The notes beneath the pieces are model-generated. The model did no database searches. It was not told the DNA's origin and was given only the letters and a program-made list of their open reading frames with translations. From a virus (lineage: Duplodnaviria > Heunggongvirae > Uroviricota > Caudoviricetes), in IMG/VR virus record IMGVR_UViG_3300031853_000004, positions 1 through 37,318 of that record: a stretch of 37,318 nucleotides of DNA; one strand, written 5' to 3'. A program made the translations under genes and the position numbers. Numbering within the stretch: the first letter of the stretch is position 1; every line of letters begins with the position of its first letter. Below, one piece after another: positions 534-36,968 of this stretch.

Positions 534-1478
534 TTAACTATTTTTGCACTTCAAAGTATCACAATAATCTTTACCATATATTGCTATACAAGCTTCTCTC
601 ATAGAATCAGTAACTTCTAATTCTATGGGTTGTCCTTCAAAATAATTATGAAACTGCTCCCACAAAATACATGCTTCTTTATAATAAGGGGTATTATACT
701 CATTTAATCCTCTAGTACATTCGACTAACTCTTCTAATGTTTTATCTATTCCAATTTGAATCATTCCTTTTTCTACTGCTTCAGGAAATTCTTTAATAAC
801 ATCTGGAGCAAAATCTAAATAATTCTCTCTATTAATTCTCCCACCAACACTAAGATATTGATGATCGGCCTCTTTCTTTACTTTAGGAATTAAATTTACT
901 TTTAATAATTCAAAATAATAGGCTTTACTTTTCTTTCCATTTTTATCAATTCTCTTCTTAGGACCATCATACTCAATAAAACCTAATTTTTTAAGGATAA
1001 CTAAAGCTTCATCTGCTATATGCAAATTTCTAGCATTATTAGTATAACCGACTCCTTCTAATAATTCTTTTTTACTAAAAAAATAATTTTCACTATATCC
1101 ATAATATTTATGTTTATTAAACATATTAAGCAACACACAATATACTTTAAAATCTAGATCACCCATATGCTCTAGACAAAACTTAACAGTTGAAATAGGA
1201 ATTTTTAAATAAGGTGGCTTAGCTTTATGAACAATATAATCGTAGCCTTTTACTTCTAATATACCAAGATCAATAAAATTATTCAATAGTCTAGTTGTTT
1301 TTCGACTATCTATTTTTAAACTTTCTACAAGAATCTTTCTTAAATCCTTTTTTTTAATCATTCTTACAGTTTGATCATCGTTCATTCAGCTATTATAGAC
1401 AATCAAAGATAATACATCTAATTGATATTTTTTATTATCTAATTTTTTAACTTCAACATTCAACGTTTTTTCTTCCAT
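534..1478 (-). CDS. Putative DNA-binding / replication-initiator-like protein, 314 aa with one in-frame TGA
   Basis: Track ORF 534..1385 extends in frame through TGA (1386-1388) to ATG at 1478, which has a strong RBS (AAGGAGGG). Two wHTH-like segments judged by eye; adjacent to iteron-like repeats. Function is inferred. Confidence 0.5.
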
Positions 1479-1499
1479 AAGCCCTCCTTAAAATATCTG

Positions 1500-1667
1500 A
1501 TGTGAAAAATTGTATATTTACATTTATATAGAAAGAATTATATATTAATTATATAGGAATGTGAAAAATTGTATAAAATCAAGCTAGTCTAATGTGAAAA
1601 ATTGTATAAATCTAATGTGAAAAATTGTATATTTTTACTAGCTTAATATCTGATGTGAAAAATTGTA
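1500..1667. repeat. Five direct repeats of ATGTGAAAAATTGTA (iteron-like, candidate origin)
   Basis: Copies start at 1500, 1559, 1592, 1615 and 1653 in an AT-rich intergenic region directly upstream of the 534..1478 gene. Confidence 0.85.
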
Positions 1668-1793
1668 CATTTTTAGCACATATCATCAATTGATAATTCC
1701 CATAATAAGAAATCTCGATCCATAATAAAAATAAAGATTACGATTACCATAACAAAAAACAAATTAGTAAAACTACTTTTATCCTAACAAAAT

Positions 1794-1880
1794 TTAATCA
1801 TCATCTTCCGTGAATATAATACACCAAACTCCGCACACAAGAATAAAAGCACCTATCCAATCCATTAAACCTCAATCCAT
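1794..1880 (-). CDS. Small hydrophobic peptide, 28 aa, TGA at codon 3
   Basis: MD*GLMDWIGAFILVCGVWCIIFTEDDD with an AG-rich sequence upstream. Confidence 0.35.
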
Positions 1881-1987
1881 TTCTTACCTTTCTCTTGGAC
1901 TAATATATGAAAAAAGAATTAAGACACTTATAGCATCGCTACTCCACTTTGTTCCGTAGCTCAGCTATAAGGTCTTAATCTTTTTTC

Positions 1988-2233
1988 CTAATCGTTACAA
2001 TAAATTTCGTCTTGTAAAAATTCCTTAAAAGTATAAGTTTTATCCTCTTCCTTATACTTCATATATCGCTTAATCATAAAATCAAACGATTCAGCTGAAA
2101 ATCCTGCAAACTCCACAACCTTTACAAGATCATAAAGAACCTCAGTAAGAAAAGTTTCCTTATCATCAATCATTATAGTTGCTGATTCTTCCACACCATT
2201 GGTATATCTGATCTCAATCATTTCTCTCTCCAA
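1988..2233 (-). CDS. Hypothetical protein
   Basis: Track ORF, 81 aa, on the coding strand. Confidence 0.7.
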   Translation of the reverse strand: MEREMIEIRYTNGVEESATIMIDDKETFLTEVLYDLVKVVEFAGFSAESFDFMIKRYMKYKEEDKTYTFKEFLQDEIYCND

Positions 2234-2342
2234 TCAATCCCAAATCTTTATCCAAATGATAAAATAAAACTCCATTAACTGCTAATACAATAACCCAATT
2301 AAGAAATACATCATACATATCTAAATCTCCTACAATTCTAAA

Positions 2343-2378
2343 ATATCGCGGCCTTGCCATGGGATGTTACATATCAAG
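2343..2378 (-). promoter_or_regulatory. Conserved 36-bp intergenic motif, copy 1
   Basis: Minus strand CTTGATATGTAACATCCCATGGCAAGGCCGCGATAT; aligns without gaps to copies at 4397 and 5110. Confidence 0.6.
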
Positions 2379-2651: not shown

Positions 2652-2661
2652 AATTACCCCT

Positions 2662-3042: not shown

Positions 3043-3075
3043 ACTTATTCTCCTTTTTTGATATCAAAACTTGAA

Positions 3076-3927
3076 TTAGTCATTTTCATCTATATCAGAT
3101 ACAAACTCTTCCATATCATCAAGCCGCAATATACTAATACACTTTCTACCAGTATCAATACAATGCTTCTTTACCCCCTTTCCAAAATGAATAATTTCTT
3201 TTCCTTTTTCTATTGGAATAGGATTCCCTCCATCAATCTTAATCCAATCATTCATATCTTCAATAATTTTATAGGTATAACTACTAGGAGTATGACCAAA
3301 CACTACATCACAAGGCAAATCCTCTGCATTAAGCATCCAATTCTCTCTAATCCAAAGCAAACTTTGACTATGTTGAGTTGGAAAATCATCTATGTCAACC
3401 CATATCTGTAATCCTCTATCATAACGATCATCGCCCATACGTATACCATTCATAGCTAAGCCCGCATGAACCAATACAAATCTGCGGCCTTGCACAATGA
3501 TATCGTAAAACAAAGGCCAAGATTGGATCCAATTCAACAAATCTTCTCTATGTTCTCTTGGAAGATTCATCAAATATTCAAAAGTTTTCAATCCACCATT
3601 GTACGCAGTCCAAACATTATTATAAGCAAAATCATACCTATAATAAGCTTCTTCTTCCTCACAACTCCTTACTCCATTGCTCTTAATAAAACGTTCATAA
3701 TCTCTAATAGTTACAAGCATCATATCTTCATGATTACCCATAATAAACTTCACAGAACTTGGAGCATTATAAGCCCACTCAAGCATCTCTGCATTATGCG
3801 GACCACGATCTACGATATCTCCGCACACGAACAATTCATCCTCTGTTGGATTAAAACTAGCTTTAGCAAGACAATCTTGGAATCTATAAAAATATCCATG
3901 AATATCAGATACTACATAAGTTGCCAT
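3076..3927 (-). CDS. Calcineurin-like metallophosphoesterase (lambda NinI / Ser-Thr phosphatase-like)
   Basis: SDIHG, GDIVDRG, GNHE, VHAG and FGHT motifs. Confidence 0.9.
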   Translation of the reverse strand: MATYVVSDIHGYFYRFQDCLAKASFNPTEDELFVCGDIVDRGPHNAEMLEWAYNAPSSVKFIMGNHEDMMLVTIRDYERFIKSNGVRSCEEEEAYYRYDFAYNNVWTAYNGGLKTFEYLMNLPREHREDLLNWIQSWPLFYDIIVQGRRFVLVHAGLAMNGIRMGDDRYDRGLQIWVDIDDFPTQHSQSLLWIRENWMLNAEDLPCDVVFGHTPSSYTYKIIEDMNDWIKIDGGNPIPIEKGKEIIHFGKGVKKHCIDTGRKCISILRLDDMEEFVSDIDEND

Positions 3928-4432: not shown

Positions 4433-4465
4433 CTAAATGAAGTTGTCCTTAACTTTATTATTAAT

Positions 4466-5095
4466 TCATTCTTTAGAAAAAACTTCACCTACCACAGGTA
4501 AAACTTCAATATCGTCATGACTAACAACATCAATCTGGCAACTCCGCATAACATCTAGAGCTGCTTTATGTTTTTCAGGAGAAGTACCTGCGCACCCATC
4601 TTCTATTACTACTATTGGAATTTCATTTTCAAACTCTGCTTGAGTAATTAATACATTAGAAATTACGCAAATATCAGTACAAAAACCAACAAAAACAATG
4701 CACTCAAGGTTTTCAATCTTTTTAAGAACAGCAGGTAAAACTAAAGAACCAAAACTATGTTTATTAATTTTAGCATAAATAGTTTTATCAGAAAGAACTC
4801 TATCTAATCTAAAATGAAGATCCCAACCATCATTTACATAATCATCAATAATGCAATGTTTAATAGGGAGTTTCTGACCTTCTCTACTATTAAGGTATTC
4901 TTCATCATAATGAGTATCGGCAGTAGCATATGCATACTTCATAGGGATATCAGCTACATCTTCAATTACTTTTAGAGCTTTTTGAGCTTCTATATCTCCA
5001 AGAGTACCAGTAATAAAATCATTTTGACAATCAATAAAAACAAAAGCTACATGATCGAGATCAAATTCTTTTTCATTAACCTTTAATACTAACAT
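4466..5095 (-). CDS. pncA: Nicotinamidase / isochorismatase-family cysteine hydrolase
   Basis: IDCQNDF, DTH, HC, K and GFCTDICV catalytic motifs. Ends at TGA; read-through would add 12 residues up to a TAG. Confidence 0.85.
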   Translation of the reverse strand: MLVLKVNEKEFDLDHVAFVFIDCQNDFITGTLGDIEAQKALKVIEDVADIPMKYAYATADTHYDEEYLNSREGQKLPIKHCIIDDYVNDGWDLHFRLDRVLSDKTIYAKINKHSFGSLVLPAVLKKIENLECIVFVGFCTDICVISNVLITQAEFENEIPIVVIEDGCAGTSPEKHKAALDVMRSCQIDVVSHDDIEVLPVVGEVFSKE

Positions 5096-5799: not shown

Positions 5800-6255
5800 C
5801 TATTTACCCTCTCTATATTTATTATATTCCTTTAATCCATCATCCCATTTAGCTTGTCTTTTAGCTTCACAGTCAGGGCAAGCAAAATGTACCCAGCCAC
5901 CATAACATTGTACATCCTCAGTGGTCCCGCAATCACAGCACACTTTTTCAGTAGCTTCTTCAAGCCGCCAGACTATATCATCAAAAATTCTAATTCCAGC
6001 TGCTTGCCATGAAGAAAAATCTTTATCTTCATCTGGAACAAAATCATAATAAAATCTTAATCCGCCAAACTTTTCTTTTACTTGCACTATATACAAATTA
6101 TCTGTAAGATTATACTTTTTAAGCACTCCATTTAGCTTACTAACACCTTTATACAGAACATCAGCCCAGCCATCATAAAGATAATCAAACCAACCACCAT
6201 ATTCATCTTTTGTCCAAGAAAAGTCTCTGACGATATCAGTAAGTTTATGTTCCAT
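5800..6255 (-). CDS. Phage hypothetical protein (QVKEKFGGLRFY motif, C-terminal CxxC...CxxC)
   Basis: Track ORF; motif is familiar from phage hypothetical proteins. Confidence 0.75.
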   Translation of the reverse strand: MEHKLTDIVRDFSWTKDEYGGWFDYLYDGWADVLYKGVSKLNGVLKKYNLTDNLYIVQVKEKFGGLRFYYDFVPDEDKDFSSWQAAGIRIFDDIVWRLEEATEKVCCDCGTTEDVQCYGGWVHFACPDCEAKRQAKWDDGLKEYNKYREGK

Positions 6256-6259
6256 TTCT

Positions 6260-6514
6260 TCACCTCTCTATAACAACAATTCCACCACGAATAGTAATTG
6301 TTTTACCATCAAGTTCAAATGTAGTTGCGGCATCTCCAACATTACTTCTCATAGTAATGTCTCCACTCCAAGTCTGTAATACTACCCCACGCGCATCTTG
6401 AAGAGTAATAGTACAGGCCTGTCCACCATTAGCAATATTATTACTTGCACAACTATACAATCCTAGAACACTAGATAAAATAACTACTACCGTTGCAATT
6501 TTTAGTTTATTCAT
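6260..6514 (-). CDS. Putative small lipoprotein
   Basis: Basic N-terminus, hydrophobic stretch and LYSC lipobox-like sequence. Confidence 0.6.
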   Translation of the reverse strand: MNKLKIATVVVILSSVLGLYSCASNNIANGGQACTITLQDARGVVLQTWSGDITMRSNVGDAATTFELDGKTITIRGGIVVIER

Positions 6515-6723: not shown

Positions 6724-7659
6724 TTAAGCTAATCCAAGATATTCTCTTCCCTTTAAATACACACCCTGCCGCAACAATCCAAAGTTAATAGTAGGATTCT
6801 TTAGCTTCTTTAGGATAGTCCAAAGTTCTTCTTTAATTAAATCCTGATACAGAGCATTAAGATAAAATCCCATAGTACCATTATTAACTTCAAACTCTTC
6901 AAGATCAAACTTAACACATGCTTTTTGCTTAGCCTTCTCGCAATCAGCATCAGTTACATACGCATCAATGATATTTTTCTCTACCTCTTGGAGAGGAACT
7001 TTAGTCTTAATGCGGCCCTTGCCTACCTTGGACTCCGCATTAACAATCTTCGCTACTTGATAATGACCCCATTGATTAACATAGTCATAATTCTTAATTA
7101 CGATACCCTCTCCAAGGACATCCTCGGGAAGATTGAAATGATTCTCTACCATCTCTTGGATATCTTTGTAGCTAGGATGATCAACAATGTAAAGTGGAGG
7201 CTCTACCTGATCATATACAGGCTCAAGCCACTCTCTATATTGCGGGTATGGTACGTACTTGCCAGTCTCAGTATCAAATACGTCAATGACCCATAGACCT
7301 GGCTTCTCATATCCCTTAATAGTCCCCGTTTGCTTCGCTCCGTGCAATCCATGCAGCCACTCACCATAAAGAATATATTGAGGATTCTCGGCCAGCCACT
7401 TTCTCAAACCAGCATACTTTCCTTCAGTAGTAAAATACAAAAAGGACTGAGCATTATCACGATTCTCAAAAATCTCCCTCTTCCTAGACCCGCAATGAAT
7501 GTCTCCATCACTGTCTGCCCAGGCGCAAAAATTCGTTCCGTCTAATTTTCCAAATACAAACACCATATTATTTAGAAAAGCATGGATGTTAAACTTAGAA
7601 TCCTCAAACCTTTCAACATGAATAAACGATTTATACTGTGCCATTTTATATCCTTTCAA
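6724..7659 (-). CDS. ATP-dependent RNA ligase, Rnl2-like nucleotidyltransferase
   Basis: Motif I KLDGTN, motif III YGEW, motif IV EGIVIK, motif V AKIVNAE. Confidence 0.8.
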   Translation of the reverse strand: MKGYKMAQYKSFIHVERFEDSKFNIHAFLNNMVFVFGKLDGTNFCAWADSDGDIHCGSRKREIFENRDNAQSFLYFTTEGKYAGLRKWLAENPQYILYGEWLHGLHGAKQTGTIKGYEKPGLWVIDVFDTETGKYVPYPQYREWLEPVYDQVEPPLYIVDHPSYKDIQEMVENHFNLPEDVLGEGIVIKNYDYVNQWGHYQVAKIVNAESKVGKGRIKTKVPLQEVEKNIIDAYVTDADCEKAKQKACVKFDLEEFEVNNGTMGFYLNALYQDLIKEELWTILKKLKNPTINFGLLRQGVYLKGREYLGLA

Positions 7660-13782: not shown

Positions 13783-14280
13783 TTATCAAGCTGTCTTTTT
13801 TGATTTCTTATCAAGGATACCCGCATACCCAAGACAAATCGCATCACATTCGTCTTCACTAGCAGTTACATCGAAATGATCTTTAACAAACTGTTTCGCG
13901 GCAGCTTTTTGATCGGCCCTTTTACGTCCAAAAGTAATACCATATTTTTCTTTTAAAATTCTTCTTCAATGAGAAGGGCTAGAACATTCATATGGTATTT
14001 TTACTGCTCCGCACCAATATAAGATCATTGCTTTAACCATGGATAACTTATGATAAGTTTGTAAATTTCTATTTGATTGCGCTTGACAATCTTCAAATAA
14101 AAGCATATCAAACTTATATGTAGAATAAAGTATATCTAAATTATCTATAATTTTTCCAAGTCTTTCTTCAATTGGATCAACTGCCGCAGTAGTAAATTTT
14201 CCTCATTTAACTAATTTCTCATCTTCAAAAAATGCTCAACCACTAACAGCTAAAGCATTATCAATTGCTAGATATTTCAT
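13783..14280 (-). CDS. RuvC-like Holliday junction resolvase (needs TGA=Trp)
   Basis: Absent from track. MKYLAIDNALAVSG*AFFED...LLFEDCQ...SPSH*RR...DECDAICLG has the RuvC acidic motifs; TGA at 14236, 14203, 13966 and a final TGA-TAA. AAGGAG RBS. Confidence 0.85.
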
Positions 14281-22084: not shown

Positions 22085-22969
22085 TTATTTCCAAAGACCT
22101 GCATTAAGTGACTCTTGAAGCCCGCACACACTGTCATGGCCGAAATAACCATCAGCTCCGCAATCTCCAACAGAGAAGCCATTATCAATTAGATATTGTT
22201 GAATCTTGGTAGAAGTCTCACGACCCCAGATACCATCAATCTCTGCTCCAACTTCCTCTTGGATTGCACTGACTAGTTGTGAACCATTTTCTTCAAAAGT
22301 AATATTATAAATATTAGAGTAGAATTCTTTATTATCACTATCTTGACCACTGATCCAGCCATCTTCATAAGTGCCTAGTTGATTTTGCCAATCAATAATA
22401 GTATTCCAACCTCCAATACCATCTACATCAAGTGTACCACCATCACGATTGTTCTTTGGATCAGTATTTACACTAGGTTCAGTATCAGAGCTTGCAGAAG
22501 AACTGCCGTTAAATGGAGGCCGCAGTACGTAAGCTACATTCCCTAAAGTACGGTATTTTTCTTGAACCGCATTTCCTACATTGCCTTCAATAGTTGGGAA
22601 ACCATAACCGTCATAGCTACCAGTAGCAAAACCAATATGGTCAGTATAGCTATCCCAATTCCAGTTAAAGATAATAACGTCACCTCTCTGGACGTCATAT
22701 TTATTAACTGAATATTGTCTTGCTCCACCATTTAGAGCAAGATCAGTGTTTTGAGAAGGGAAACCTTTCATGTATACGCCAGCTCTATCTAGAACTCATG
22801 AAGTATACATGCAACACCATCAAATTTCAGAAGAAGGGCCGGCTAACCAATCCTCTCCAGTTATTTCAGCCATCCAACGGCCATATTTAGAGCCACGTTC
22901 AGGATCGTCAGGTGCATAATATCCCAATTCTCCAAAAGCAACTCTCATTACATCTTCAGCTGTCGCCAT
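22085..22969 (-). CDS. CHAP-domain endolysin with C-terminal peptidoglycan-binding repeats, 294 aa (needs TGA=Trp)
   Basis: MATAEDVMRVAFGELGYYAPDDPERGSKYGRW...SEI*WCCMYTS*VLDRAG: TGA at 22820 and 22796 flank the catalytic Cys. GDVIIFNW, DHIG and TIEGN motifs; LDVDGIGG / DGIWG / DGYFG binding repeats. Confidence 0.92.
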
Positions 22970-22981
22970 ATTAATCACTCC

Positions 22982-24019
22982 TTACGCCCATTTTCCATCA
23001 TTTAGGGAACGTTGTAAAGCACAACAGGTATTAAAACCAAAATATCCATCTACTGCTAGACCATAATCAAATCTATTAAGATACTCTTGCATTTTCTTAA
23101 TAGTTTGCGGACCAATGATGCCGTCTACATAAGCACCAATTTGCTCTTGCATAGCTCTAACCATTGGTGAACCAGACTCATCCCATCTTACAGTAGAGAA
23201 ACGTTCCATATACTCTTCATTTGCACTATCCTGACCGTCAATCCAACCATCAACATAAGTGCCGAGCTGTCTCTGTAATTCAGAAATAGTTAGCTCACCT
23301 GCCCAACCATCAATATTAAGTTCCATATCGCCAGGCTCTTGTGGAGTAACCACTGGTTGTTCAGGAGTTCCATTTGGTGAAGTGTTGTTCTTATATCCTT
23401 CCTTAATTCTAGTAGGATAATCAATTTGGCATCAATTACAATCTACATATCCTGAAACATCATCATACACAACGTCACCATCTGAAAGTCTTATACCGCC
23501 TTGCTGCCATAAGCCAGCATCATCGCCATAAGAAGGCCAATTTCTACCTCAAGCTGCGATTCAGTCTGCATATGGAAGTAACTCATCACTATATACGTTA
23601 TTGTTTCAGGTTGAACCATTTACATAGATACCTGAATAAAATCCATTATTATTTAATGTGTCACAGAAAGTCTTAATAACATCTGTAAGAGCTCTGCGAG
23701 AAAGAGCGTATTGGCGTGGATCTTCAACGTCCATGTATACGGGAAGATCGAAAGCTTTACCAGTTAAAAGACCACCAAAGTGTTCTGCATCTTTTCTAGC
23801 TTCTGAAGTACTTGTAGTAACAGTGTAATAATATGCTCCAATATGGAGTCCTGCGGCTTTGGCGTTGCGGTAATGTGTTTCAAAGGAAGAATCTTTATAT
23901 CTTCCACCTTCATTCCCGCCAGCTTTGATAATTACACCCCATAGACCACGCTTATTTTTTCAAGCATTAAAATCTACGTTAGCGTCTCATCGAGAGACAT
24001 CAATGACTAGCTCACGCAT
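22982..24019 (-). CDS. GH25 muramidase endolysin with peptidoglycan-binding repeats, 345 aa (needs TGA=Trp)
   Basis: IDVSR*D, IIKAGG, IGAYYY, YMDVE, D*IAA*, LWQ and VDCN* motifs; six TGAs at 23987, 23960, 23606, 23561, 23549 and 23432; AAAGGAG RBS. Confidence 0.93.
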
Positions 24020-24037
24020 ATCATTCTCCTTTCTATT

Positions 24038-25600
24038 TTAATCTATTCTTTTAAGAACAGATTCACCAAAACCAAAAACAAAAAATACAAAAAGATAAAC
24101 GGAAGCAAAAACAAAAGGTACAATAAAAGTTTTCGTTATTAAGAACGAAAACACAAGTCCCGCAGTAAATTCAACTATATATTGAACTAATTCATATTTT
24201 CTTCTCTTGGAAACATAGATTAATAATCCAATAGAAAGAATGAAAATAAAGTTAATTAAGAATCAATCATTAAGACTTTCATCTGCGGTTTTAGCTTTAG
24301 CATATTCATCAATTCTCATAACAGAAGTTTTATATTCTTTAGTATCATTTAATTTAGATGATTCGGTTTGTGAAGAAGTAATATTAACTGAATTTACTTC
24401 TTTAACAGCTTGAATTAGTGTAGGCTCATTCGTAGAAACTGGAATTTTTTCTTTATTTTCCTCTTTTTGATTCTCTTCTTCAGGAATTTTTTCTTTTTCT
24501 TTTGGATCTTCTTTATCTTTTTCAGGAGTTTTTTCTTTATCTTTTTCAGGAGTTTTTTCCTCTTCTTTTTCAGGAACTTTTTCAGGAGTTTTAGGAGGTC
24601 TTACAATATTGTCCATTTTAGGAAGATATGCTAAATAAATTTGTTCTTCTGGGTAATCTAAATAATTTGGATTATATTTCTCAACTCTAGTTGGCTCTAC
24701 ACCATATCTAAGGAAACTATATGTATACAAATTAATAATATTTTTAAGTGGTGCGCCATCTGTAGTTCCATCATTGTAAGAAACTATTGTAATTGGACCA
24801 TCATTCCAAGAATCCTCAATATTTACAGCTGTCGATGCTATAAATTGTGTTGGTATTCAGTAACCATTTGTATATCCTTCTAATCTGCGGACAAATAATG
24901 CTCCACTATGAGGATATAAATTGCCTTGAGAATAAATTGATACTACATCATTGTTACCAGTATTAATAGTTTCTCATTCTCCTAAAACCATATGTTCTTT
25001 AACTGCATCATTAATATAAAAATTGCTATCTGTTACATCAGGAAAGTCAGAATCTTCAAAATTTTCATCTAAATAAATATGTACATTTGAAATTTTATAC
25101 TGTTCTGTTGAATCATTCTTTTCTACAGACATTGTCTTTGGCTCTTGAGTATTTTCAACCCAAGAGTCAGGTAAATTATCTGAATTAGTAGTTTGTTCAA
25201 CTAATTTAGAAACCGAATCCGCGGCTTTTGCTTTATCGAGTTTTTCTTGTTTTTCTAATTGTTTATTATTTTCTTCTACCTTAATATCTTCTTCTTCATT
25301 ATGTTTAGTTACTTCTTCGACATTAGTATCATATTCTTCTTTTCTTTTTGCATTTTCTTCTTCTGCATATTTATTATATTCATCAACTTTATTGTTATAA
25401 TCGTTTATTAAATTATTAGCTTCTTCTTCTGTCATATCATCTGTGATAGTGGGAGCTTGCGGCTCTACTATCTCGGTAGCAATTTCTTCTGAAGGTACTT
25501 GATTTTGTTCAAGTTCAGAAGCAATCGCAATATTTGGAATAAAGCCTATAAATATTATCATCGCTAATATTAGAAAAATAGGCATAACTATCCTTTTCAT
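24038..25600 (-). CDS. Secreted, membrane-anchored surface protein, 520 aa (joins track ORFs 24974..25600 and 24263..24730 via TGA=Trp)
   Basis: One frame open except for TGA at 24974, 24857 and 24263. Signal peptide, coiled coil, Pro/Glu/Lys repeats, then KTAD + TM + KRRK and two further hydrophobic segments. Confidence 0.8.
24510..24557. repeat. Two exact tandem 24-bp repeats encoding EKTPEKDK-type units
   Basis: TCTTTATCTTTTTCAGGAGTTTTT at 24510 and 24534, with degenerate copies to about 24595. Confidence 0.85.
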
Positions 25601-25694
25601 AATTTTTCCCCTTTCTCTTTTAAAAATTTATATAAAAATTCTTCTTGGTTTAACAAAAAAGGCTCCCATAAAGGAAGCCTTGAAAGTTCGGTAC

Positions 25695-25775: not shown

Positions 25776-25961
25776 TTAAGTTCATATTTGAACAAATTTA
25801 ACTTTGTTATCTTCTTGGTTTTTAACTTTGTTAAATTCTTTATCAAGCCATACTTGATATTCTTTACAGCCTTCAATTCATATTGGAGTTTTATCACACC
25901 TTTGACTGCCGCATCTAAAACAAAAATCTGTTTCTTTTAAAAATCTATCTTTTAAATCCAT
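25776..25961 (-). CDS. Small Cys-containing hypothetical protein, 61 aa, two TGA
   Basis: MDLKDRFLKETDFCFRCGSQRCDKTPI*IEGCKEY...; fills the gap between two tRNAs. Confidence 0.45.
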
Positions 25962-26058: not shown

Positions 26059-26196
26059 TAAGAGGAAATAATTAGAATAGTGTAAAATACGCGCTCTACC
26101 CTTGAGCTACAAAAACGTACTGTGCTTTTGGCAAGATTCGAACTTGCAATAACGTGTCTCCTAGACATGAAGTAACTATTCTATCCATCACTCTTA
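26059..26196 (-). ncRNA. Y-RNA-like hairpin RNA 1 carrying a circularly permuted tRNA-like domain (YrlA-like topology)
   Basis: End-paired scaffold encloses, in order, T arm GCAAG-TTCGAAT-CTTGC, acceptor 3' strand CAAAAGC, short loop, acceptor 5' strand GTTTTTG and D arm GCTC-AAGGGTA-GAGC. Confidence 0.75.
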
Positions 26197-26390
26197 TTTA
26201 ATTGTTTTCAAAGTCAATCTATATTTCTATCTTGAGGGTCTGAATGGAAATAATAATCTATCCAACCAAAATCATCTTCATACATCATTTCTAGACATCC
26301 CACTGGAACTCAGATATTTTGATCTTCTTCTTCCATCTTTTGGATTTCATTTATAATCATATGAAAATTATTTTTTGAAAATTTTGCCAT
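26181..26390 (-). CDS. Small acidic hypothetical protein, 69 aa, three TGA
   Basis: MAKFSKNNFHMIINEIQKMEEEDQNI*VPVGCLEMMYEDDFGWIDYY...; GAGGG RBS. Confidence 0.4.
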
Positions 26391-26448: not shown

Positions 26449-26544
26449 TGGCAGCCCCGTCCTGTACCGCCCAGGAATAGACGAGTTTGGACCTCGCCAC
26501 ATGGTTTTGAAGACCATCTCGGTTCTTAACCGATAAGCGGGGCT
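26449..26544 (-). tRNA. Opal-decoding tRNA, anticodon UCA, long variable arm (suppressor / Sec-like)
   Basis: Acceptor AGCCCCG/CGGGGCT + G + CCA; D stem TCGGTT/AACCGA; anticodon arm ATGGT-CTTCAAA-ACCAT (anticodon 26508-26510); variable arm GGCGAG/CTCGTC; T arm TCCTG-GGCGGTA-CAGGA. Confidence 0.88.
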
Positions 26545-26546: not shown

Positions 26547-27290
26547 TTATATTTTCATCCATTCTTCAAAAGAATATTTTTCAATATCCCTCCTTAATTT
26601 AGGTAATTTATAAGCTACACACCATTTTTTAATAGTCGTATCTGAAACATTAAAACGCTTACCTAATTCAACAAAAGAATTATTATAAACCATTTCTTTA
26701 AAACTTTCTCGGTCAGGTCTTTCCACAGTTCTTTGAAGAAAAGAAACACACTCAGGACAATGAACACTTGTTAATTTAATTTCTTTTCCACATCTTTTAC
26801 AATAATTTTTCTTTTTTGGTTTTTGATTATGTTTTTTATTCTTACTTCCAAAAGTATCTAACTGTCTATCACAATTAGGACATACCCATCTTAAATTTTC
26901 TAATCTATTATCGTTATGAACACCATTTATGTGATCTAAAGTTAAAGTTAATTCTTTATTATTTCAAAAAGGTTCCTGTCCACAAATAGAACATTTATAA
27001 TTATTCTTTGTAGTAAAATCATCTTTAAAATGTTTTCTAATATAACCCGATGAAGCGTTTGAATCTTTGCAGAATGAATTTTCAAAAGTTCTTTCTTCTT
27101 TATTTGAAGGTATTATTGTGAAATGACTATAATCTATATCGTAATTATCTAACCTTGTTTTTATAACTTTTGAAACATTCCCTGTTAAAGATTGATAACC
27201 TAAATTTTTCGCTAATTGTATAAAATTTGTAGACTTTTTAACTCAATCTTCTAATTCTTCTTTTGAAAAATTATCAACTCTTGCTACCAT
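26547..27290 (-). CDS. HNH homing endonuclease with zinc fingers and C-terminal HTH, 247 aa (needs TGA=Trp)
   Basis: Absent from track. CSICGQEPF*NNKELTLTLDHINGVHNDNRLENLRWVCPNCD; TGA at 27243 and 26964. Confidence 0.9.
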
Positions 27291-27552: not shown

Positions 27553-27582
27553 TTTTATTTATTCTTTAAAAAGAGACTATTA

Positions 27583-28218
27583 AAAAGTTTCTTGCGACCT
27601 TCGCCGTACTCTTTTATTGTGTGTTAATTTTCAGTCACGTAGGAGATAAAAGTGAGCCATACGGAGCGACCGCATAACTTTTTACCCCAGTCTAAAGCTA
27701 TAAAATACACAGGTGTATTTTATATTCTCCATTGAAGGATAACTTTATTACCAAATCTACGCCAGGATTGATTACAAACTGGAACTTTCACCCATCATTC
27801 ACAAAATAATATCATATCTTCAAATGATCTTCCGTATGCCATTTTACCGCAGGCTTCGCGTTTTTTCATTCCAGCTTTGGGCTACTTGTACATTGACCTC
27901 GTCTTATTGATATATTACTATATCTTAACTGGAAACTCTCTTATTGGTATTTCCAACGTTCCTGCTTTGGGCACCACCCCGCACAGACGTTTGGATTCAA
28001 ATCCCGCTGGGACGCCTATTATGAGAGCGACGAGACACTACCTTTTAATCGCACAATAATCGAGCGCTACCTACATTTCGTTGAAATCATTTAATTTCTT
28101 CTTACTATTGGATTACTCCAACAATAAAAGCCAACCATCTAAAGTATCCCATAGATTTCGACTTACTGAGTAGATACGCATGACCGCATGATATTGCGAA
28201 TACACATGCTTCAAAAAC
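27583..28218 (-). ncRNA. Large structured ncRNA of about 630 nt, ROOL-like
   Basis: No long minus-strand ORF, higher GC and many hairpins. 5' TTGAAG..CAATATCATGCGGT..GTAAGTCG, central AAGTAGCCCAAAG and 3' GGTCGCTCC..GGCTCA..GAGTACGGCGAAGGT resemble ROOL as I recall it. Size and tRNA-cluster location fit. Needs a covariance-model search. Confidence 0.62.
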
Positions 28219-28250
28219 TTTTTAATATTCTCTTTTCAAAGAATATTTAA

Positions 28251-28502: not shown

Positions 28503-28531
28503 ATTATAATATATTATTTTAATTTTGTCAA
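28503..28531 (-). promoter_or_regulatory. Consensus sigma70 promoter driving hairpin RNA 3 and downstream RNAs
   Basis: TTGACA (28526-28531), 17 nt, TATAAT (28503-28508). Confidence 0.85.
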
Positions 28532-30911: not shown

Positions 30912-31014
30912 CTTTATTAATATTATATCATAATTTTTTCTGGTATGCAAGAATTTTTTTCTTTTTACAAAGAAAATTTTTATTAAGTGTTTTACCTTTT
31001 AAACTAACCGCCCG

Positions 31015-31050
31015 CGGAGGACAGTACCGGAGTCGAACCAATATCTCCTA
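31015..31050 (-). other. Isolated tRNA 3'-half-like fragment (T arm plus acceptor strand)
   Basis: ATTGG-TTCGACT-CCGGT-ACTGTCCTCC directly after a promoter, with no D or anticodon arm. Confidence 0.4.
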
Positions 31051-31119
31051 ACCTTTATTAATATTATATCATTAATTTTTATGGAAGTCAAGTATTTTTT
31101 TCCAAGAGAAAAGAAAAAT

Positions 31120-31923: not shown

Positions 31924-32718
31924 TTAAATCCTCTCCTTTTTATACTCTATATTTTTACTTTTTAAATCACGAGCAATTTCAACAAACTGCTCACATTTAT
32001 TGCAAGATGATCCGCGCGCACACCGATATCCGCAATTCATTTTTGATTCAATAAAGTTAGGAATTAAACTTTCATTTGGAATATCTATTTCCAAATCTTT
32101 GTATATATATTTTAAATTTTCACGCCATTCTTGTCTTTCAAACCAGATTCTATATAAAGTACCAATCTTCACCCAAGAATTAACATTAAATTCTCCAACG
32201 TCAATATATTTAGATAACTCTTCTATACATTCTGGTATAAAAATTGGGGCTTTTGGATTAATGCCTTTATCAAATCTTTTACTTGGAATCTCATTTAAAA
32301 TTAATCTAGTTTGAACATTATTCTTTTCACATATATTTTTTACATACTCTAAATTATAACACAAATCATCGCATACATAAATATCTGTAGTTCCTAAAAT
32401 TATTTGTTCTTCCAATAGAGAAAGAGAAGAAGGTGCGGAGCTTGCGTTAAAGAAAAACTTTAAGCCTCTTTTTTTCATTTCTTCTACAACTTTATAGGAT
32501 AAATCAATTTTAAAATAAATAAAAGGATTAATGTTGTCTATAGCTTCCATTTGTTGATAATTCATATTATCTGGTTGAATATTAAACCTAATATCTTTAT
32601 ATTTTGAAACAAAATCAAATAACTTATCAAAATTATTGCGAAGTTCATTAAATGTAATGTTATATTCATTACCATATCTATTTTTAACATCCGTTGATCA
32701 AGGAATTGCTACTTTCAT
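31924..32718 (-). CDS. Hypothetical protein, 264 aa, TGA at codon 7, C-terminal Cys cluster
   Basis: Track ORF 31924..32565 extends in frame through TGA (32698-32700) to ATG 32718 with an AAAGGAGG RBS; KMNCGYRC...CNKC. Confidence 0.7.
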
Positions 32719-34570: not shown

Positions 34571-34580
34571 AATTAAACTC

Positions 34581-34799
34581 CTAATCTAGTATAGTATCTA
34601 GTACAGTATCAATCCAATTTTTCGCTTCATCATCAAGCAAATCATAAATAATATATCCATTACTTAAATAAATATCAAGTCTAACCGCAATCTCTTCTAT
34701 TGGATCACCACTTAATAGTGTATATTCAAACCTTTGTTGGCTATCGTTTTTTACAAAATCTTGAAACATTAGAGAATCTTCAATATTCATTCCAAACAT
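34581..34799 (-). CDS. Hypothetical protein
   Basis: Track ORF; AAAGGA RBS; promoter upstream. Confidence 0.65.
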   Translation of the reverse strand: MFGMNIEDSLMFQDFVKNDSQQRFEYTLLSGDPIEEIAVRLDIYLSNGYIIYDLLDDEAKNWIDTVLDTILD

Positions 34800-34860
34800 T
34801 TTTTTTCCTTTCTCTTTTACTTTAATAATTATAACATATTTTTAGTAAGCTGTCAAGAAT

Positions 34861-34896
34861 AAAAAAAATAGCCCTAAAGAAAAAATCTTTAGGGCT
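34861..34896 (-). terminator. Rho-independent terminator after the Ro60 gene
   Basis: AGCCCTAAAGA / TCTTTAGGGCT 11-bp stem followed by a T tract on the minus strand. Confidence 0.8.
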
Positions 34897-34922
34897 TCAC
34901 CAAGAAGAAAGGGGAAACAACA

Positions 34923-36374
34923 TTAACCGAAGCTAATGTTATTTATAAGATTGACAATGTTCTCTTTTCCATTTACTAAATCAATATATTTAAATATTGA
35001 ATCATTTAAAGAAGTTAAGAACATAAAATTATCAGATGGAGGTTCGATCTGACCATCATAATTTGCTAAATCAAAACTGTATGTCATGATATTGCCATAT
35101 CTTTTATTCCAATTATAAATTGAATCAGTTCTAGATCCGGCATAATAGCTATTATAATTAGTCCAAAAAATTTGCATATCACTTATAACAAAAATTCTAT
35201 CATAAGTATCTTTCATTATTTCAATTGCAGATTGTATGTTAGTACCCCATCCACAATTACTATTACTACACATAGCATCAATGATACTAAAAGGATTATT
35301 TAATCTAGAAAAATTATTAAATCTTTTAGCGTCGGTACCAAATTTAATAAAATCTATATTTGAACCATTTAAGAATAACGCAGTCGCGAAACAAGCTCCA
35401 ATTTCTTTTAAAGTTATATTACTATTTGAACTAATATAATTTTCCATAGAACCAGATACATCAAGTACAATAGCATTAATACCATCAAATTTAGGGATAT
35501 TATAAGTTGCAATTCCAAAAGCTCTTCCAAGAGCCTCCTCAATTAAAAGATTATTAATCTTTAAATTTTTATGTGCAGTATAAATTCGATATGGAAAAAC
35601 TAATGATTTACGAATTTTATTTTCATTAATAAGTTGAGGATAAAGATATTCCCCAATCCATTCATTGTCAATATTTGGATTATCAAGAATATTATTTAAA
35701 TTGCGGAGAAGCGCCATGTATCCAAGTTTACCTTCTTCAACCATTTCCTTCCAGGTTGCTTGACGTGATTCCTTAGACTGTTTCTTTGCAACACTAACCT
35801 CCCAAGTATCTGGAGCTTTAAGAAGGTTATTCTTAAAATCATTAATAACTTTTGAATTTGCATGTGTAAGATTAATTAAATCATACATATTATACGTATG
35901 ACCAATCATTTTATATTTAGTAATTTCATACTGTCCAAGAGAAGAAAGATAATTAGCAGAACCTTTAATTAAAGCATGAGATCTCTTTCCATCAAGATAT
36001 TTAACAGCACCAAAGATTTCTGAAACATCATCAGGACGCCGCATAAAACTACGATAAAATTCTCTTTTCTCTTGGAAAGATTTATCATTAAGCCATGCGG
36101 CGATTAGTTGTGAGACAGACCGCATTCCAAGTTCATTACGAGCAAAAATTGCGGCTTTGCCTACAAATGCATAATCATATTGGTCAGCAACAGCTTCTGT
36201 CAGATTTAAAAGTCTATCAATTTGATCTGAAGACTTTTCGTAATATTGATTTTCTAAGAAAGATGAAAAAAGCATATTAAACCAAGCTTCTACAGTATTT
36301 CTTTTATAAAGGATAGTTCCTTCATATGATTGCACTCGTTCTTGAACTTTCTTTTCATTAAACTTTGCCATCAC
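34923..36374 (-). CDS. rsr: Ro60 / TROVE-vWA RNA-binding protein (Rsr-like)
   Basis: TROVE features (FLENQYYE, AIFARNELGMRS, RRPDD, ITKY, LTH, PDTWE, GYMALLRNL, PYR) followed by a vWA MIDAS LDVSGSM, T and FVISDMQ. Confidence 0.9.
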   Translation of the reverse strand: MMAKFNEKKVQERVQSYEGTILYKRNTVEAWFNMLFSSFLENQYYEKSSDQIDRLLNLTEAVADQYDYAFVGKAAIFARNELGMRSVSQLIAAWLNDKSFQEKREFYRSFMRRPDDVSEIFGAVKYLDGKRSHALIKGSANYLSSLGQYEITKYKMIGHTYNMYDLINLTHANSKVINDFKNNLLKAPDTWEVSVAKKQSKESRQATWKEMVEEGKLGYMALLRNLNNILDNPNIDNEWIGEYLYPQLINENKIRKSLVFPYRIYTAHKNLKINNLLIEEALGRAFGIATYNIPKFDGINAIVLDVSGSMENYISSNSNITLKEIGACFATALFLNGSNIDFIKFGTDAKRFNNFSRLNNPFSIIDAMCSNSNCGWGTNIQSAIEIMKDTYDRIFVISDMQIFWTNYNSYYAGSRTDSIYNWNKRYGNIMTYSFDLANYDGQIEPPSDNFMFLTSLNDSIFKYIDLVNGKENIVNLINNISFG

Positions 36375-36394
36375 AACATCCTTTCTGTTGGAAA

Positions 36395-36652
36395 TTAAAT
36401 TCTTGTATATGCAACAATTTCGTAATTATCTTCATTAATTTTATACATTTGAACATACCCACCATCAAAATATTCAATAACTGAAATATAGCTATTATAG
36501 ATTTTTTCTGCATATTCAAATGTATTAATAGGATCAGAGTAAAAACGTGTGCCGCTATCAGTGTGAGCAGCTATAAAATAAAAACCTTCTATATCTTTAT
36601 ATTGATGAGTTAGTGCAAGATCAGTTTGTGCTTTAATATTTTCAGCAATCAT
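36395..36652 (-). CDS. Hypothetical protein
   Basis: Track ORF; AAGGAG RBS; upstream of and probably co-transcribed with Ro60. Confidence 0.65.
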   Translation of the reverse strand: MIAENIKAQTDLALTHQYKDIEGFYFIAAHTDSGTRFYSDPINTFEYAEKIYNSYISVIEYFDGGYVQMYKINEDNYEIVAYTRI

Positions 36653-36968
36653 CTTTTATCTCCTTAGCTGGAATTACTTTACTCTTACTATTATAAAAAT
36701 TTTTTATTGGTTTGTCAAATATATTTTTTTCTAAAAATTGAATAATTTCTGAATATTGTTCATTAACTAAATCTTGATTTTTCATGATTTGCCAAAAAGG
36801 TACTATTTCATTGATATAATGATAATATTTTTCAAAATCATCTATTAAAATGTCTCTTGAACATCCTTGTTTAGATGAATCATTTATGTATCCAAGGTAC
36901 TTTCAAAAAAGGCAATTTGTACTATCACAATCATGACAATAAAATCTTACATTAACCTTTTCGCACAT
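36633..36968 (-). CDS. Possible Cys-containing hypothetical protein with in-frame TGA
   Basis: MCEKVNVRFYCHDCDSTNCLF*KYLG...; fills an otherwise empty gap but overlaps its neighbours. Confidence 0.35.

What the first reader, a model, noticed from the sequence alone, without database searches (positions are those of the whole stretch)
534..36968. TGA is reassigned to Trp, but only a subset of genes uses it
Seen: in-frame TGAs lie at positions where the families have Trp: GH25 IDVSR*D and *IAA*, CHAP *WCCMYTS*V, RuvC SG*A and SH*RR, HNH EPF*N. Reading them through restores full genes with RBS-led starts. By my reading, 44 of 46 credible minus-strand track ORFs (excluding the two surface-protein fragments) end in TAA or TAG. 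The other two (4466, 6260) meet an in-frame TAG or TAA within 13 codons. Trp-rich accessory enzymes such as 3076..3927 use only TGG. Established: stop-codon-recoded gut phages are known and enrich the recoded codon in late and lysis genes. Inference: the lysins imply a walled host, so this is likely a phage-controlled code switch rather than a Mollicute host code.
Basis: partly seen in the sequence, partly recalled or inferred. Interest (0 to 1): 0.82.

Follow-up and report, generated by a model that had tools for sequence, protein, structure and literature searches.

The report
Phage reads TGA as tryptophan late
This is the first 37 kb of a 143.5-kb phage of Gram-positive gut or rumen bacteria that reads the stop codon TGA as tryptophan, almost only in its lysis, packaging and virion genes. 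That kind of recoding is already described, but here the likely decoder is an oddly shaped tRNA that carries a second, tryptophan-anticodon-like arm.

Summary
In-frame TGAs lie in the GH25 and CHAP lysins, the RuvC-like resolvase, an HNH nuclease and several small ORFs. With the TGAs masked, they align to Trp or other aromatic residues in homologs. Across related phages, 337 aligned codons were TGG 139, TGA 72 and Tyr 34, with no Gly, Ser or Cys signal.

Use is strongly stage-biased over the whole 143.5-kb genome. TGA makes up 72% of Trp codons in the structural block and 6% in the replication block (p about 1e-33). In the window it is 39% in the lysis cassette against 7% in the RNA-repair block.

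Some sister phages use the standard code and have TGG at the same sites, so these genes are not pseudogenes.

ARAGORN found no suppressor. An Rfam scan found one opal tRNA(UCA) at 26449-26544 (-), about 850 nt upstream of the lysis cassette. It has A1-U72, G73, an encoded CCA end, and a long variable arm whose loop copies the tRNA-Trp anticodon loop. The family is widespread in phage contigs and covaries.

No RF1 or TrpRS gene is present. The host is inferred to be a standard-code Bacillota.

The phenomenon is known (Borges et al.), and this scan had already reported it, and the tRNA class, from another window of the same genome. This is a new member of a known kind.

The parts
22982..24019 (-). 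GH25 muramidase endolysin with PG_binding domains; 6 in-frame TGA (codons 11, 20, 138, 153, 157, 196)
   Evidence: Pfam PF01183, E 4e-26. PDB alignments put W at codons 11 and 153, and W/Y at 157. Relatives at codon 11: TGG 8, TGA 1, TAT 1; at codon 153: TGG 9, TGA 1.
22085..22969 (-). CHAP-domain endolysin; 2 in-frame TGA (codons 50, 58) flanking the catalytic Cys motif
   Evidence: Pfam PF05257. Relatives show TGG, TAT or TTC at these sites. A 64% identical copy lies in a rumen Bacillota MAG contig.
24038..25585 (-). 515-aa secreted/membrane protein at the head of the lysis cassette; 3 in-frame TGA; read as two fragments under code 11
   Evidence: ORF lists under code 11 and code 4, translation, coding score 299. 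Function is not established.
13783..14280 (-). RuvC-like Holliday junction resolvase; 4 TGA (codons 15, 26, 105 and the last codon, 165)
   Evidence: PHROG 827/159. In 54 full-length homologs: codon 15 is W 47, Y 6, F 1; codon 105 is W 54/54; codon 26 is mostly Y; codon 165 is F 41, W 12.
26547..27290 (-). HNH endonuclease directly upstream of the opal tRNA; 2 TGA
   Evidence: Pfam HNH_3, below cut-off. Codon 109 in relatives: TGG 2, TGA 2, ATA 1. HNH homologs sit directly upstream of tRNA(UCA) in three other phage contigs (L130, L074, L137), and a weak match to the HNH C-terminal part lies a few hundred bases from tRNA-Trp(CCA) in standard-code relatives.
26449..26544 (-). Candidate opal suppressor tRNA(UCA). 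It has a 7-bp acceptor stem with A1-U72, G73 and an encoded CCA end. A 4-nt linker leads to a 6-bp D stem with a 3-nt loop. The anticodon loop is CUUCAAA. The 6-bp variable arm has loop GUCCAAA, and the T loop is the unusual GGCGGUA.
   Evidence: Rfam tRNA-Sec model, 25.2 bits, E 0.11. MFE is a cloverleaf at -38.7 kcal/mol, z -2.6. It is the only UCA cloverleaf in the genome. In the five-member alignment, 13 of 21 pairs have compensatory changes and 99% of cells are paired, against 38-51% in slid controls. ARAGORN misses it.
26181..26390 (-). 69-aa ORF just downstream of the tRNA; 3 TGA
   Evidence: Homologs lie next to tRNA genes in L086, L066 and L068; codon 27 aligns to TGG in all 3.
25776..25961 (-). 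61-aa Cys-rich ORF; 2 TGA
   Evidence: One homolog has TGG at codon 28.
36633..36968 (-). 111-aa CxxC small protein; 2 TGA; it fills a gap that has no ORF under code 11
31924..32718 (-). 264-aa protein with a TGA at codon 7
   Evidence: A homolog in L086 (43% identity, aligned from residue 1) also has TGA at this codon.
4433..5095 (-). Isochorismatase-family enzyme; TGA at codon 210 of 220. It may be Trp, or a stop in the early phase; undecided.
   Evidence: Pfam PF00857 covers residues 17-195. No homolog alignment reaches the TGA.
6245..6514 (-). 89-aa lipoprotein-like ORF; TGA at codon 85; undecided in the same way
3076..3927 (-). Metallophosphoesterase with 8 TGG and 0 TGA; an example of the TGA-free early/accessory set
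28503..28531 (-). Perfect sigma-70-type promoter (12/12) upstream of ROOL, tRNA-Pro, HNH and tRNA(UCA). It is the likely host-RNAP promoter for the decoder; this is an inference.
25659..25681 (-). Intrinsic terminator between the RNA-gene island and the lysis cassette

Best explanation
The window belongs to a complete, roughly 143.5-kb siphovirus-like phage of a Bacillota host. In this phage TGA is a tryptophan codon, and it is used mainly in genes needed late: lysis, resolvase, terminase, portal, a sigma factor, and tail and virion proteins. Early genes (RNA repair, nucleotide metabolism, replication) are written so that the host's standard code reads them correctly; they use TGG only and end in TAA or TAG. 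The phage supplies its own decoder, a non-canonical tRNA(UCA) at 26449-26544 in an RNA-gene island with consensus host-type promoters, just upstream of the lysis cassette. As this tRNA builds up it outcompetes host RF2 at UGA, so the TGA-interrupted late genes can be translated in full. The tRNA has the tRNA-Trp acceptor identity set (A1-U72, G73). It also has a variable arm whose loop copies the tRNA-Trp anticodon loop (xU-CCA-AA). I infer that this arm gives host TrpRS the CCA determinant that the real UCA anticodon has lost. Shown: the TGA positions, Trp equivalence, the module bias, and the tRNA and its conserved family. Inferred: the timing, competition with RF2, charging by TrpRS, and the role of the variable arm.
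For: 1. Trp identity. With own TGAs masked as X, codons in related phage loci aligned to them are TGG 139, TGA 72, TAT/TAC 34, ATT 14 and TTC 9 out of 337. Own TGG positions give the same profile. RuvC codon 105 is W in 54/54 homologs and codon 15 is W in 47/54. The GH25 motifs DVSxW and WIA are W in solved structures.
2. Sense-codon behaviour. ORFs of at least 150 codons cover 53% of the structural block under code 11 and 93% with TGA as sense; TAG as sense gives 54%. The share of Trp-like codons is 1.0-1.4% in every module only if TGA is counted. The base after TGA has the same distribution as the base after TGG (p 0.13).
3. Subset use. TGA as a fraction of TGA+TGG is 72% in the structural block against 6% in replication (p 1.4e-33), and 39% in the lysis block against 7% in window 1-22 kb (p 9e-5).
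4. Decoder. There is a single UCA cloverleaf with G73 and an encoded CCA end, and its family shows compensatory changes. NUCCANN occurs in the variable region of 42 of 58 distinct phage UCA tRNAs but in only 1 of 56 Ser/Leu/Tyr class II controls from the same loci. An HNH-tRNA gene order recurs in other phages.
5. Phage rather than host code. Sister phages (TerL 60% identical) have 0 TGA and 43-50 TGG in the same genes, and carry a tRNA-Trp(CCA) beside a weak HNH-like match where ours has HNH-tRNA(UCA). Portal relatives are phAss-1 and Enterococcus, Bacillus and Clostridioides phages.
6. Literature. The pattern matches TGA-recoded Agate and Jade phages (bioRxiv 10.1101/2021.08.26.457843).
Against: The tRNA scores below Rfam cut-offs, ARAGORN does not call it, and its T loop lacks the usual TΨC sequence. 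A long variable arm plus G73 is also the SerRS signal, so some Ser insertion cannot be excluded. The recoded close relatives G001 and G005 showed no UCA tRNA in my model searches, but both records are incomplete. The HNH gene upstream of the tRNA itself contains TGAs. No RF1 or TrpRS gene is present, so how RF2 is overcome is unknown. The host is inferred only from similarity.
Confidence: 0.85

Rival explanations
1. The host itself uses TGA = Trp (a Mollicute-like or other code-4 organism), and the phage simply follows the host code.
For: Read with code 4, the whole genome has all genes ending in TAA or TAG. No RF or TrpRS gene is needed in the phage.
Against: The early and replication modules almost never use TGA (8 of 129 Trp-like codons) although they use TGG freely. 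Sister phages are fully standard-code. Two peptidoglycan hydrolases with PG-binding domains imply a walled host. Relatives infect standard-code Bacillota. The phage carries its own tRNA(UCA).
Confidence: 0.04
2. TGA is read through, but the inserted residue is not Trp, or not only Trp. The long variable arm plus G73 would make the tRNA a SerRS substrate like allo-tRNAs and tRNA-Sec, so Ser (or Sec/Cys) would go in.
For: The tRNA has a long variable arm, G73 and a Sec-like 6-bp D stem. The Rfam tRNA-Sec model is what found it, and ARAGORN labels family members 'SeC'. tRNA-Sec-like opal tRNAs that insert Ser or Cys are documented (PMC5389517). The closest recoded relative, G001, has an 8/4 tRNA-Ser(GCU)-like gene with a similar T loop.
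Against: Ser, Cys and Gly codons are rare at TGA-aligned sites: about 9 Ser, 4 Cys and 1 Gly of 337. Invariant Trp positions in RuvC and GH25 are encoded by TGA. The acceptor/T domain is 7/5, not 8/5, 8/4 or 9/3. A genome with about 175 in-frame TGAs cannot rely on SECIS and SelB. The variable-arm loop conserves CCA, a Trp determinant, and class II controls lack it.
Confidence: 0.07
3. There is no dedicated decoder. Late genes would be read through by host tRNA-Trp(CCA) near-cognate decoding once the phage disables or titrates RF2, and the UCA tRNA-like element would have another role, for example as one of the tRNA-like or Y-RNA-like modules in this island.
For: Only 35% of TGA-recoded phages had a detectable suppressor tRNA in Borges et al.. 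The recoded relatives G001 and G005 gave no UCA hit. The island holds several non-standard tRNA-like RNAs (YrlA-like, ROOL).
Against: The element has everything a working tRNA needs, including G73, an encoded CCA end and a perfect UCA anticodon arm. It belongs to a covarying family found in many TGA-using phage contigs. No candidate anti-RF2 gene was identified. A protein with 21 TGAs in 1835 codons needs efficient decoding.
Confidence: 0.05
4. The TGA-interrupted genes are pseudogenes or assembly errors in a decaying or chimeric contig.
For: Under code 11 the lysins, the resolvase and most virion genes are fragmented.
Against: TGA is the only interruption: there are no frameshifts and no in-frame TAA or TAG. 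Coding potential runs unbroken through ORFs of up to 2806 codons. The TGAs sit at Trp sites and are shared with independent contigs. CheckV rates the record 100% complete.
Confidence: 0.01

Closest known systems
TGA-recoded 'Agate' and 'Jade' gut phages with stage-biased stop-codon recoding (Borges et al., bioRxiv 10.1101/2021.08.26.457843; later Nat Microbiol 2022, the journal reference from my own knowledge)
   Same: A large (127-140 kb class) phage of Firmicutes. TGA is read as Trp, concentrated in structural and lysis genes, while replication genes stay in standard code. Close relatives use the standard code. The decoder gene lies just upstream of the lysis cassette, as in the Jade 'code change module'.
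   Different: There is no RF1 or TrpRS gene. The suppressor tRNA is non-canonical and is missed by a standard tRNA finder. Clade membership in Agate was not tested, because no Agate sequence was available to me.
phAss-1 / proposed Phassvirus (PMC10607447)
   Same: The portal is 36% identical. Both have genomes of about 136-143 kb, a very long tape-measure-size protein, recoded late genes, phage-encoded suppressor tRNA, no aaRS, and a predicted Clostridia/Bacillota host.
   Different: phAss-1 reads TAG as Gln using three tRNA(CUA) genes. This phage reads TGA as Trp using one tRNA(UCA).
tRNA-Sec-like, allo-tRNA and selC* opal tRNAs (Mukai et al. 2017, PMC5389517)
   Same: UCA anticodon, long variable arm, G73 or A1-U72, and a long D stem with a tiny loop. 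Some of these occur in phages and rumen Clostridia.
   Different: Those have 8/4 or 9/3 (or 8/5) acceptor/T domains and insert Ser or Cys. This tRNA is 7/5 with a 4-nt linker. Its variable-arm loop conserves the Trp anticodon loop sequence, and the codon it reads sits at Trp sites.
Mycoplasma/Spiroplasma genetic code 4 with tRNA-Trp(UCA)
   Same: UGA is decoded as Trp by a UCA-anticodon tRNA.
   Different: In those organisms the whole genome uses TGA and RF2 is absent. Here only late genes use it, and the host is inferred to keep the standard code.

Membership tests
Stage-biased TGA-to-Trp recoded phages (Borges et al. type) | In-frame TGA in conserved phage genes at positions where homologs have Trp | tested here: met
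   TGG or TGA at 211 of 337 aligned codons; W 54/54 at RuvC codon 105.
Stage-biased TGA-to-Trp recoded phages (Borges et al. type) | Recoded codon enriched in structural and lysis genes and rare in replication/early genes | tested here: met
   72% against 6% (p 1.4e-33); in the window 39% against 7% (p 9e-5). Functions.
Stage-biased TGA-to-Trp recoded phages (Borges et al. type) | TGA is not used as the regular terminator | tested here: met
   All 186 called genes, including the 175 with a coding score of at least 15, end in TAA or TAG. Near-terminal TGAs are no more common than near-terminal TGGs (OR 0.9, p 0.87). Two early genes remain ambiguous.
Stage-biased TGA-to-Trp recoded phages (Borges et al. 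type) | Phage-encoded suppressor tRNA(UCA) | tested here: met
   Window 26449-26544 (-). It is non-canonical and below Rfam cut-offs.
Stage-biased TGA-to-Trp recoded phages (Borges et al. type) | Host uses the standard code | tested here: inconclusive
   Indirect only: early genes avoid TGA, sister phages are standard-code, cultured relatives infect Bacillota, and a rumen Bacillota MAG holding related phage contigs has prfB. That MAG looks like a mixed bin.
Jade-type code-change module | RF1 and TrpRS genes next to the suppressor tRNA | tested here: not met
   No PF00472 or PF00579 match in the 143.5-kb genome in six-frame searches.
Code 25 (TGA = Gly) phages of Gracilibacteria/Absconditabacteria | TGA aligned to Gly in homologs | tested here: not met
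   One GGA among 337 aligned codons.
Selenocysteine recoding | Sparse TGA at Cys/Sec sites; tRNA-Sec with an 8/5 acceptor/T domain | tested here: not met
   About 175 in-frame TGAs; 4 TGC among 337 aligned codons. The tRNA is 7/5. SECIS and SelB were not searched.
Canonical bacterial tRNA-Trp | A1-U72, G73, CCA anticodon, 4-5-nt variable loop, GG in the D loop and TΨC in the T loop | tested here: not met
   A1-U72 and G73 are present. The anticodon is UCA, the variable region is 24 nt, the D loop is AAG and the T loop is GGCGGUA. It may work like a tRNA-Trp, but it is not a standard member.
allo-tRNA (8/4 or 9/3) | 12-bp acceptor/T domain split 8/4 or 9/3 | tested here: not met
   The eighth pair would be C-A in this tRNA and in L053. 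A 7/5 split pairs 100% of cells across the family.

The most novel reading that the evidence does not exclude
The opal suppressor belongs to a widespread class of phage tRNA(UCA) that I did not find described in the papers I could search. Its variable arm is a structural copy of the tRNA-Trp anticodon stem-loop (loop xU-CCA-AA). This second 'anticodon' would act as a relocated identity element, letting host TrpRS charge a tRNA whose real anticodon has been changed to read UGA. That would separate the codon read from the amino acid attached, within one molecule.
Probability: 0.4. Interest if true: 0.85.

Novelty: new member of a known kind. Interest (0 to 1): 0.45.

Why it matters
For annotation, code 11 fragments the lysins, the resolvase and nearly the whole virion module of this phage, so it must be called with TGA as a sense codon. 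For biology, it adds a well-resolved case of stage-specific recoding in which standard-code, TGA-recoded and (in one rumen bin) TAG-recoded sisters can be compared. A phage sigma factor gene is itself heavily recoded, which hints that the code switch sits upstream of late transcription. The most useful by-product concerns why most TGA-recoded phages seem to lack a suppressor tRNA. Here the decoder exists, but it is non-canonical: ARAGORN does not call it, and Rfam's tRNA and tRNA-Sec models score it below their cut-offs. Its Trp-anticodon-like variable arm suggests a testable way to keep Trp identity after the anticodon changes, which is also of interest for engineering orthogonal UGA decoding.

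Tried and rejected
- ARAGORN on the window and the whole genome found 9 tRNAs and none with UCA.
- The Rfam gathering-threshold scan missed the opal tRNA. Only the E-value scan showed it.
- nhmmer and blastn with the tRNA against the first set of related loci found nothing, because those loci did not span the tRNA regions.
- The Rfam tRNA-Sec search and my own covariance-model search of relatives G001-G006 returned Leu, Ser, Cys, Glu and Trp(CCA) tRNAs but no UCA tRNA.
- A short-pattern search of G001 and G002 for TTCAAA was uninformative and wasted a call.
- PDB sequence searches for the RuvC-like and CHAP proteins returned nothing.
- Stop-to-stop ORF cover as a test of the code is misleading in the window alone, because treating TAA as sense inflates it most in AT-rich DNA. 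The module-level contrast and the homolog codons are the valid tests.
- Near-terminal TGAs as leftover stop codons: TGA is not enriched in the last 12 codons relative to TGG, and the last-codon TGA of RuvC aligns to a conserved F/W. I dropped this idea as a general rule.
- Context-dependent readthrough: there is no bias in the base after TGA.
- Literature searches for a description of the anticodon-like variable arm found none in the held library. This is not proof that none exists.

Full report
**What the window is.** The window is bases 1-37318 of a single-contig IMG/VR virus record of 143,542 bp, rated 100% complete by CheckV. All credible window genes lie on the minus strand, and GC content is about 31%. 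PHROGs and Pfam name the following genes.
- RNA ligases at 6724-7644 and 14785-15939.
- Metallophosphoesterases at 3076-3927 and 17476-18237.
- A P-loop kinase at 15950-16957 and a SpoU methylase at 21096-21659.
- An isochorismatase at 4433-5095 and an adenylosuccinate-synthetase-like protein at 7976-9112.
- A Ro60/TROVE protein at 34923-36371 and a RuvC-like resolvase at 13783-14280.
- A lysis cassette at 22085-25585 with a CHAP lysin and a GH25 lysin.

Between 25.6 and 31.1 kb lies an island of RNA genes: tRNAs, a ROOL RNA and YrlA-like RNAs.

**Checking the observation.** Each quoted motif is present, with TGA in frame.
- GH25 has 6 TGAs, CHAP 2, RuvC-like 4 and HNH 2.
- The protein at 24038-25585 has 3. 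It appears as two fragments under code 11 and as one 515-aa ORF when TGA is read through.
- Several small ORFs also carry TGAs: 26181-26390, 25776-25961 and 36633-36968.
- 3076-3927 has 8 TGG and no TGA.

My own gene calls, made with TAA and TAG as the only stops, give 186 genes in the genome with unbroken coding potential. 4466 and 6260 run on for 11 and 5 codons after their TGA.

Two single-TGA genes are doubtful, because an ATG follows the TGA closely: 534-1478 and 10006-10788. One other, 31924-32718, is supported by a homolog with TGA at the same codon.

**Is TGA tryptophan?** I masked every own TGA as X and aligned all genes by tblastn to 19 related phage loci fetched through the GH25 lysin and the large terminase.
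- Codons opposite own TGAs were TGG 139, TGA 72, TAT/TAC 34, ATT 14 and TTC 9, out of 337.
- Own TGG codons gave the same spectrum: TGG 95 and TGA 19 of 187.
- Gly, Ser and Cys codons were rare.

Individual genes agree.
- In 54 full-length homologs of the resolvase, codon 105 is W in all 54 and codon 15 is W in 47.
- Codon 26 is mostly Y. The very last codon, a TGA followed directly by TAA, aligns to F 41 and W 12.
- Solved GH25 structures have W at the DVSxW and WIA motifs, where this gene has TGA.

**Is it only a subset of genes?** Yes, and the whole genome shows this more clearly than the window.

| Block | Internal TGA | Internal TGG | TGA share |
|---|---|---|---|
| Structural/packaging, 76.7-128.5 kb | 125 | 49 | 72% |
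| Replication, 39.6-71.7 kb | 8 | 121 | 6% |
| Lysis cassette, 22.05-25.65 kb | 11 | 17 | 39% |
| Window 1-22 kb | 6 | 86 | 7% |

- Structural against replication gives Fisher p 1.4e-33. Lysis against window 1-22 kb gives p 9e-5.
- The structural block includes the large terminase (8 TGAs), the portal (4), a sigma factor (8), and proteins of 1835 and 2806 aa with 21 and 18 TGAs.
- The share of Trp-like codons is 1.0-1.4% in every module only if TGA is counted.
- ORFs of at least 150 codons cover 53% of the structural block under code 11 and 93% with TGA as sense, while TAG as sense gives 54%. The lysis block goes from 54% to 98%, and the replication block only from 72% to 76%.
- The base after TGA is distributed as it is after TGG, so this is not context-dependent readthrough.
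- TGA is not enriched in the last 12 codons relative to TGG. There is therefore no sign that TGA still serves as a regular terminator. For 4433-5095 and 6245-6514 the question stays open.

**The decoder.** ARAGORN finds nine tRNAs in the genome and none with UCA. An Rfam scan at the E-value threshold gave a weak tRNA-Sec hit at 26453-26544 (-) with anticodon loop CUUCAAA.

Reading the sequence shows these features.
- A 7-bp acceptor stem starting with A1-U72, then G73 and an encoded CCA end.
- A 4-nt linker and a 6-bp D stem with a 3-nt loop.
- A perfect anticodon arm.
- A 6-bp variable arm with the 7-nt loop GUCCAAA.
- A 5-bp T stem with the odd loop GGCGGUA.
- The minimum-free-energy fold is exactly this cloverleaf, at -38.7 kcal/mol.

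It is the only UCA cloverleaf in the genome.

Exact-pattern scans of IMG/VR found homologous long-arm tRNA(UCA) genes in many phage contigs. In a five-member alignment, 13 of 21 stem pairs carry compensatory changes and 99% of cells pair, against 38-51% when the partner is slid.

- Among 54 distinct long-arm UCA tRNAs selected without any constraint on the variable arm, the arm's hairpin loop is GUCCAAA in 15, CUCCAAA in 13, UUCCAAC in 3 and GUCCAUA in 2. This is the tRNA-Trp anticodon loop.
- In ARAGORN calls from the same loci, NUCCANN occurs in the variable region of 42 of 58 UCA tRNAs but in only 1 of 56 Ser/Leu/Tyr class II tRNAs.
- Many members have an otherwise ordinary tRNA-Trp body.

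Gene order also recurs. An HNH gene lies directly upstream of the tRNA in three other contigs, and the small ORF downstream recurs as well.

The tRNA lies about 850 nt upstream of the lysis cassette. A terminator at 25681-25659 separates them, and perfect sigma-70-type promoters lie further upstream in the island. No RF1-domain or class Ib synthetase gene exists in the genome.

**Relatives and host.**
- Phages with TerL 68-72% identical (L027-L032), and L018, also use in-frame TGA.
- Phages with TerL 60% identical (G002-G004) have no TGA at all and 43-50 TGG in the same genes.
- G002 and G004 carry an unusual 82-nt tRNA-Trp(CCA) with the same A1-U72 start and 4-nt linker. A weak match to the HNH C-terminal part lies a few hundred bases away, where this phage has HNH followed by tRNA(UCA).

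The lineage therefore contains both codes, as Borges et al. reported for Agate phages. This also suggests that the opal tRNA descends from a phage tRNA-Trp.

Portal relatives in GenBank are a human-gut contig (51% identity), the TAG-recoded phAss-1 (36%), and phages of Enterococcus, Bacillus, Clostridioides and Staphylococcus. phAss-1 is predicted to infect Clostridia (PMC10607447).

A rumen 'Bacillota' MAG has a CHAP lysin 64% identical to this one. It also holds seven portal homologs on separate contigs: two with TGA, four with TAG and one with neither. It has prfB as well. It looks like a bin rich in phages of this lineage, so it is only weak evidence about the host.

**Mechanism.**
- *Shown:* TGA is a sense codon equivalent to Trp. 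It is concentrated in late genes. The phage encodes one structurally conserved tRNA(UCA).
- *Inferred:* Host RNA polymerase transcribes the RNA island. The tRNA accumulates and competes with RF2. Late genes, including a recoded sigma factor, then become translatable, so the code change gates lysis and assembly. Host TrpRS charges the tRNA through A1-U72, G73 and, perhaps, the CCA loop of the variable arm.
- *Main uncertainty:* The amino acid actually attached is unknown, because a long variable arm plus G73 is also what SerRS recognises (PMC5389517).

**Comparison and novelty.** Stage-biased TGA-to-Trp recoding in large Firmicutes phages, with suppressor tRNAs and standard-code sisters, is described. 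This scan had already reported it for another window of this same genome, together with the tRNA class with the extra arm (e1-1834747). The finding as given is therefore a new member of a known kind.

I did not find the anticodon-like variable arm described in the papers I could search. Borges et al. explicitly suspected that non-canonical suppressor tRNAs were escaping detection. That part is the novel reading, and it belongs to the separate tRNA finding on this window.

**Verdict.** Interest is moderate for the recoding itself and higher for the decoder.

Noticed in passing
window 27575-28233 (-): Full-length ROOL RNA (Rfam RF03087, 284 bits, E 3e-64), directly upstream of tRNA-Pro(UGG) and downstream of a perfect sigma-70-type promoter at 28531-28503.
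   Followed up: partly
window 26065-26179 (-) and 30964-31058 (-); 34923-36371 (-): YrlA-like (Y-RNA-like) hits below cut-off (37 and 23 bits), in the same window as a TROVE/Ro60 + VWA protein. Together they suggest a phage Ro60-Y RNA system beside RNA ligases, a kinase and phosphoesterases (an RNA-repair set).
   Followed up: partly
window 25698-25769 (-), 25977-26049 (-), 29947-30019 (-): tRNA callers disagree here. Rfam calls a tRNA-Thr(UGU) that ARAGORN misses. ARAGORN calls a 'tRNA-Met' that Rfam misses. A 27.8-bit tRNA-like element has a poor acceptor stem. Several of these may be non-standard or non-chargeable tRNA-like RNAs.
   Followed up: no
window 27417-27479 (-): A weak hit (23.9 bits; cut-off 44) to the F. 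prausnitzii HDV-like ribozyme, immediately 3' of tRNA-Pro. It may be a processing element or a chance match.
   Followed up: no
window 7976-9112 (-): Adenylosuccinate-synthetase-like protein matching PHROG 1211, which is annotated as a PurZ-type enzyme (E 1e-35). If it is a real PurZ, the phage might replace adenine with 2-aminoadenine. DatZ and MazZ were not searched.
   Followed up: no
G000:C1:127385-128458 (-) (L016:14985-16058): A phage sigma factor gene (PHROG 5767) with 8 in-frame TGAs and 1 TGG. Making it would depend on the code switch, which would put translation recoding upstream of late transcription.
   Followed up: partly
L063/L064 (G004:44311-44395, G002:16213-16297): Standard-code sister phages carry an unusual 82-nt tRNA-Trp(CCA): 4-nt linker, small extra hairpin in the variable region, T loop UGCAAUA, A73 and no encoded CCA end. 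A weak match to the HNH C-terminal part lies nearby, so this may be the same site as this phage's tRNA(UCA).
   Followed up: partly
L066 (G001:115750-115839) and L068 (G001:115350-115436): The closest recoded relative has an 8/4-type tRNA-Ser(GCU)-like gene with T loop GGCGGGA, and a tRNA-like element whose arm carries a CCUCCAAAC loop. No UCA tRNA was found in this 90%-complete record, so its decoder is unknown.
   Followed up: partly
G007 (rumen MAG 'Bacillota bacterium Tb.RUG.116'), contigs C57, C110, C13, C72, C24, C107, C11: One 2.2-Mb MAG holds seven different portal homologs of this phage lineage: two with in-frame TGA, four with in-frame TAG (up to 11) and one with none. The bin seems to collect many phages of one lineage that use three different codes.
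   Followed up: partly
L130, L074, L137, L078 and window 26547-27290: HNH endonuclease genes (or, in L078, the RuvC-like resolvase gene) sit directly upstream of long-arm tRNA(UCA) genes in unrelated-looking phage contigs. The suppressor tRNA may travel as a homing-endonuclease-linked cassette.
   Followed up: partly
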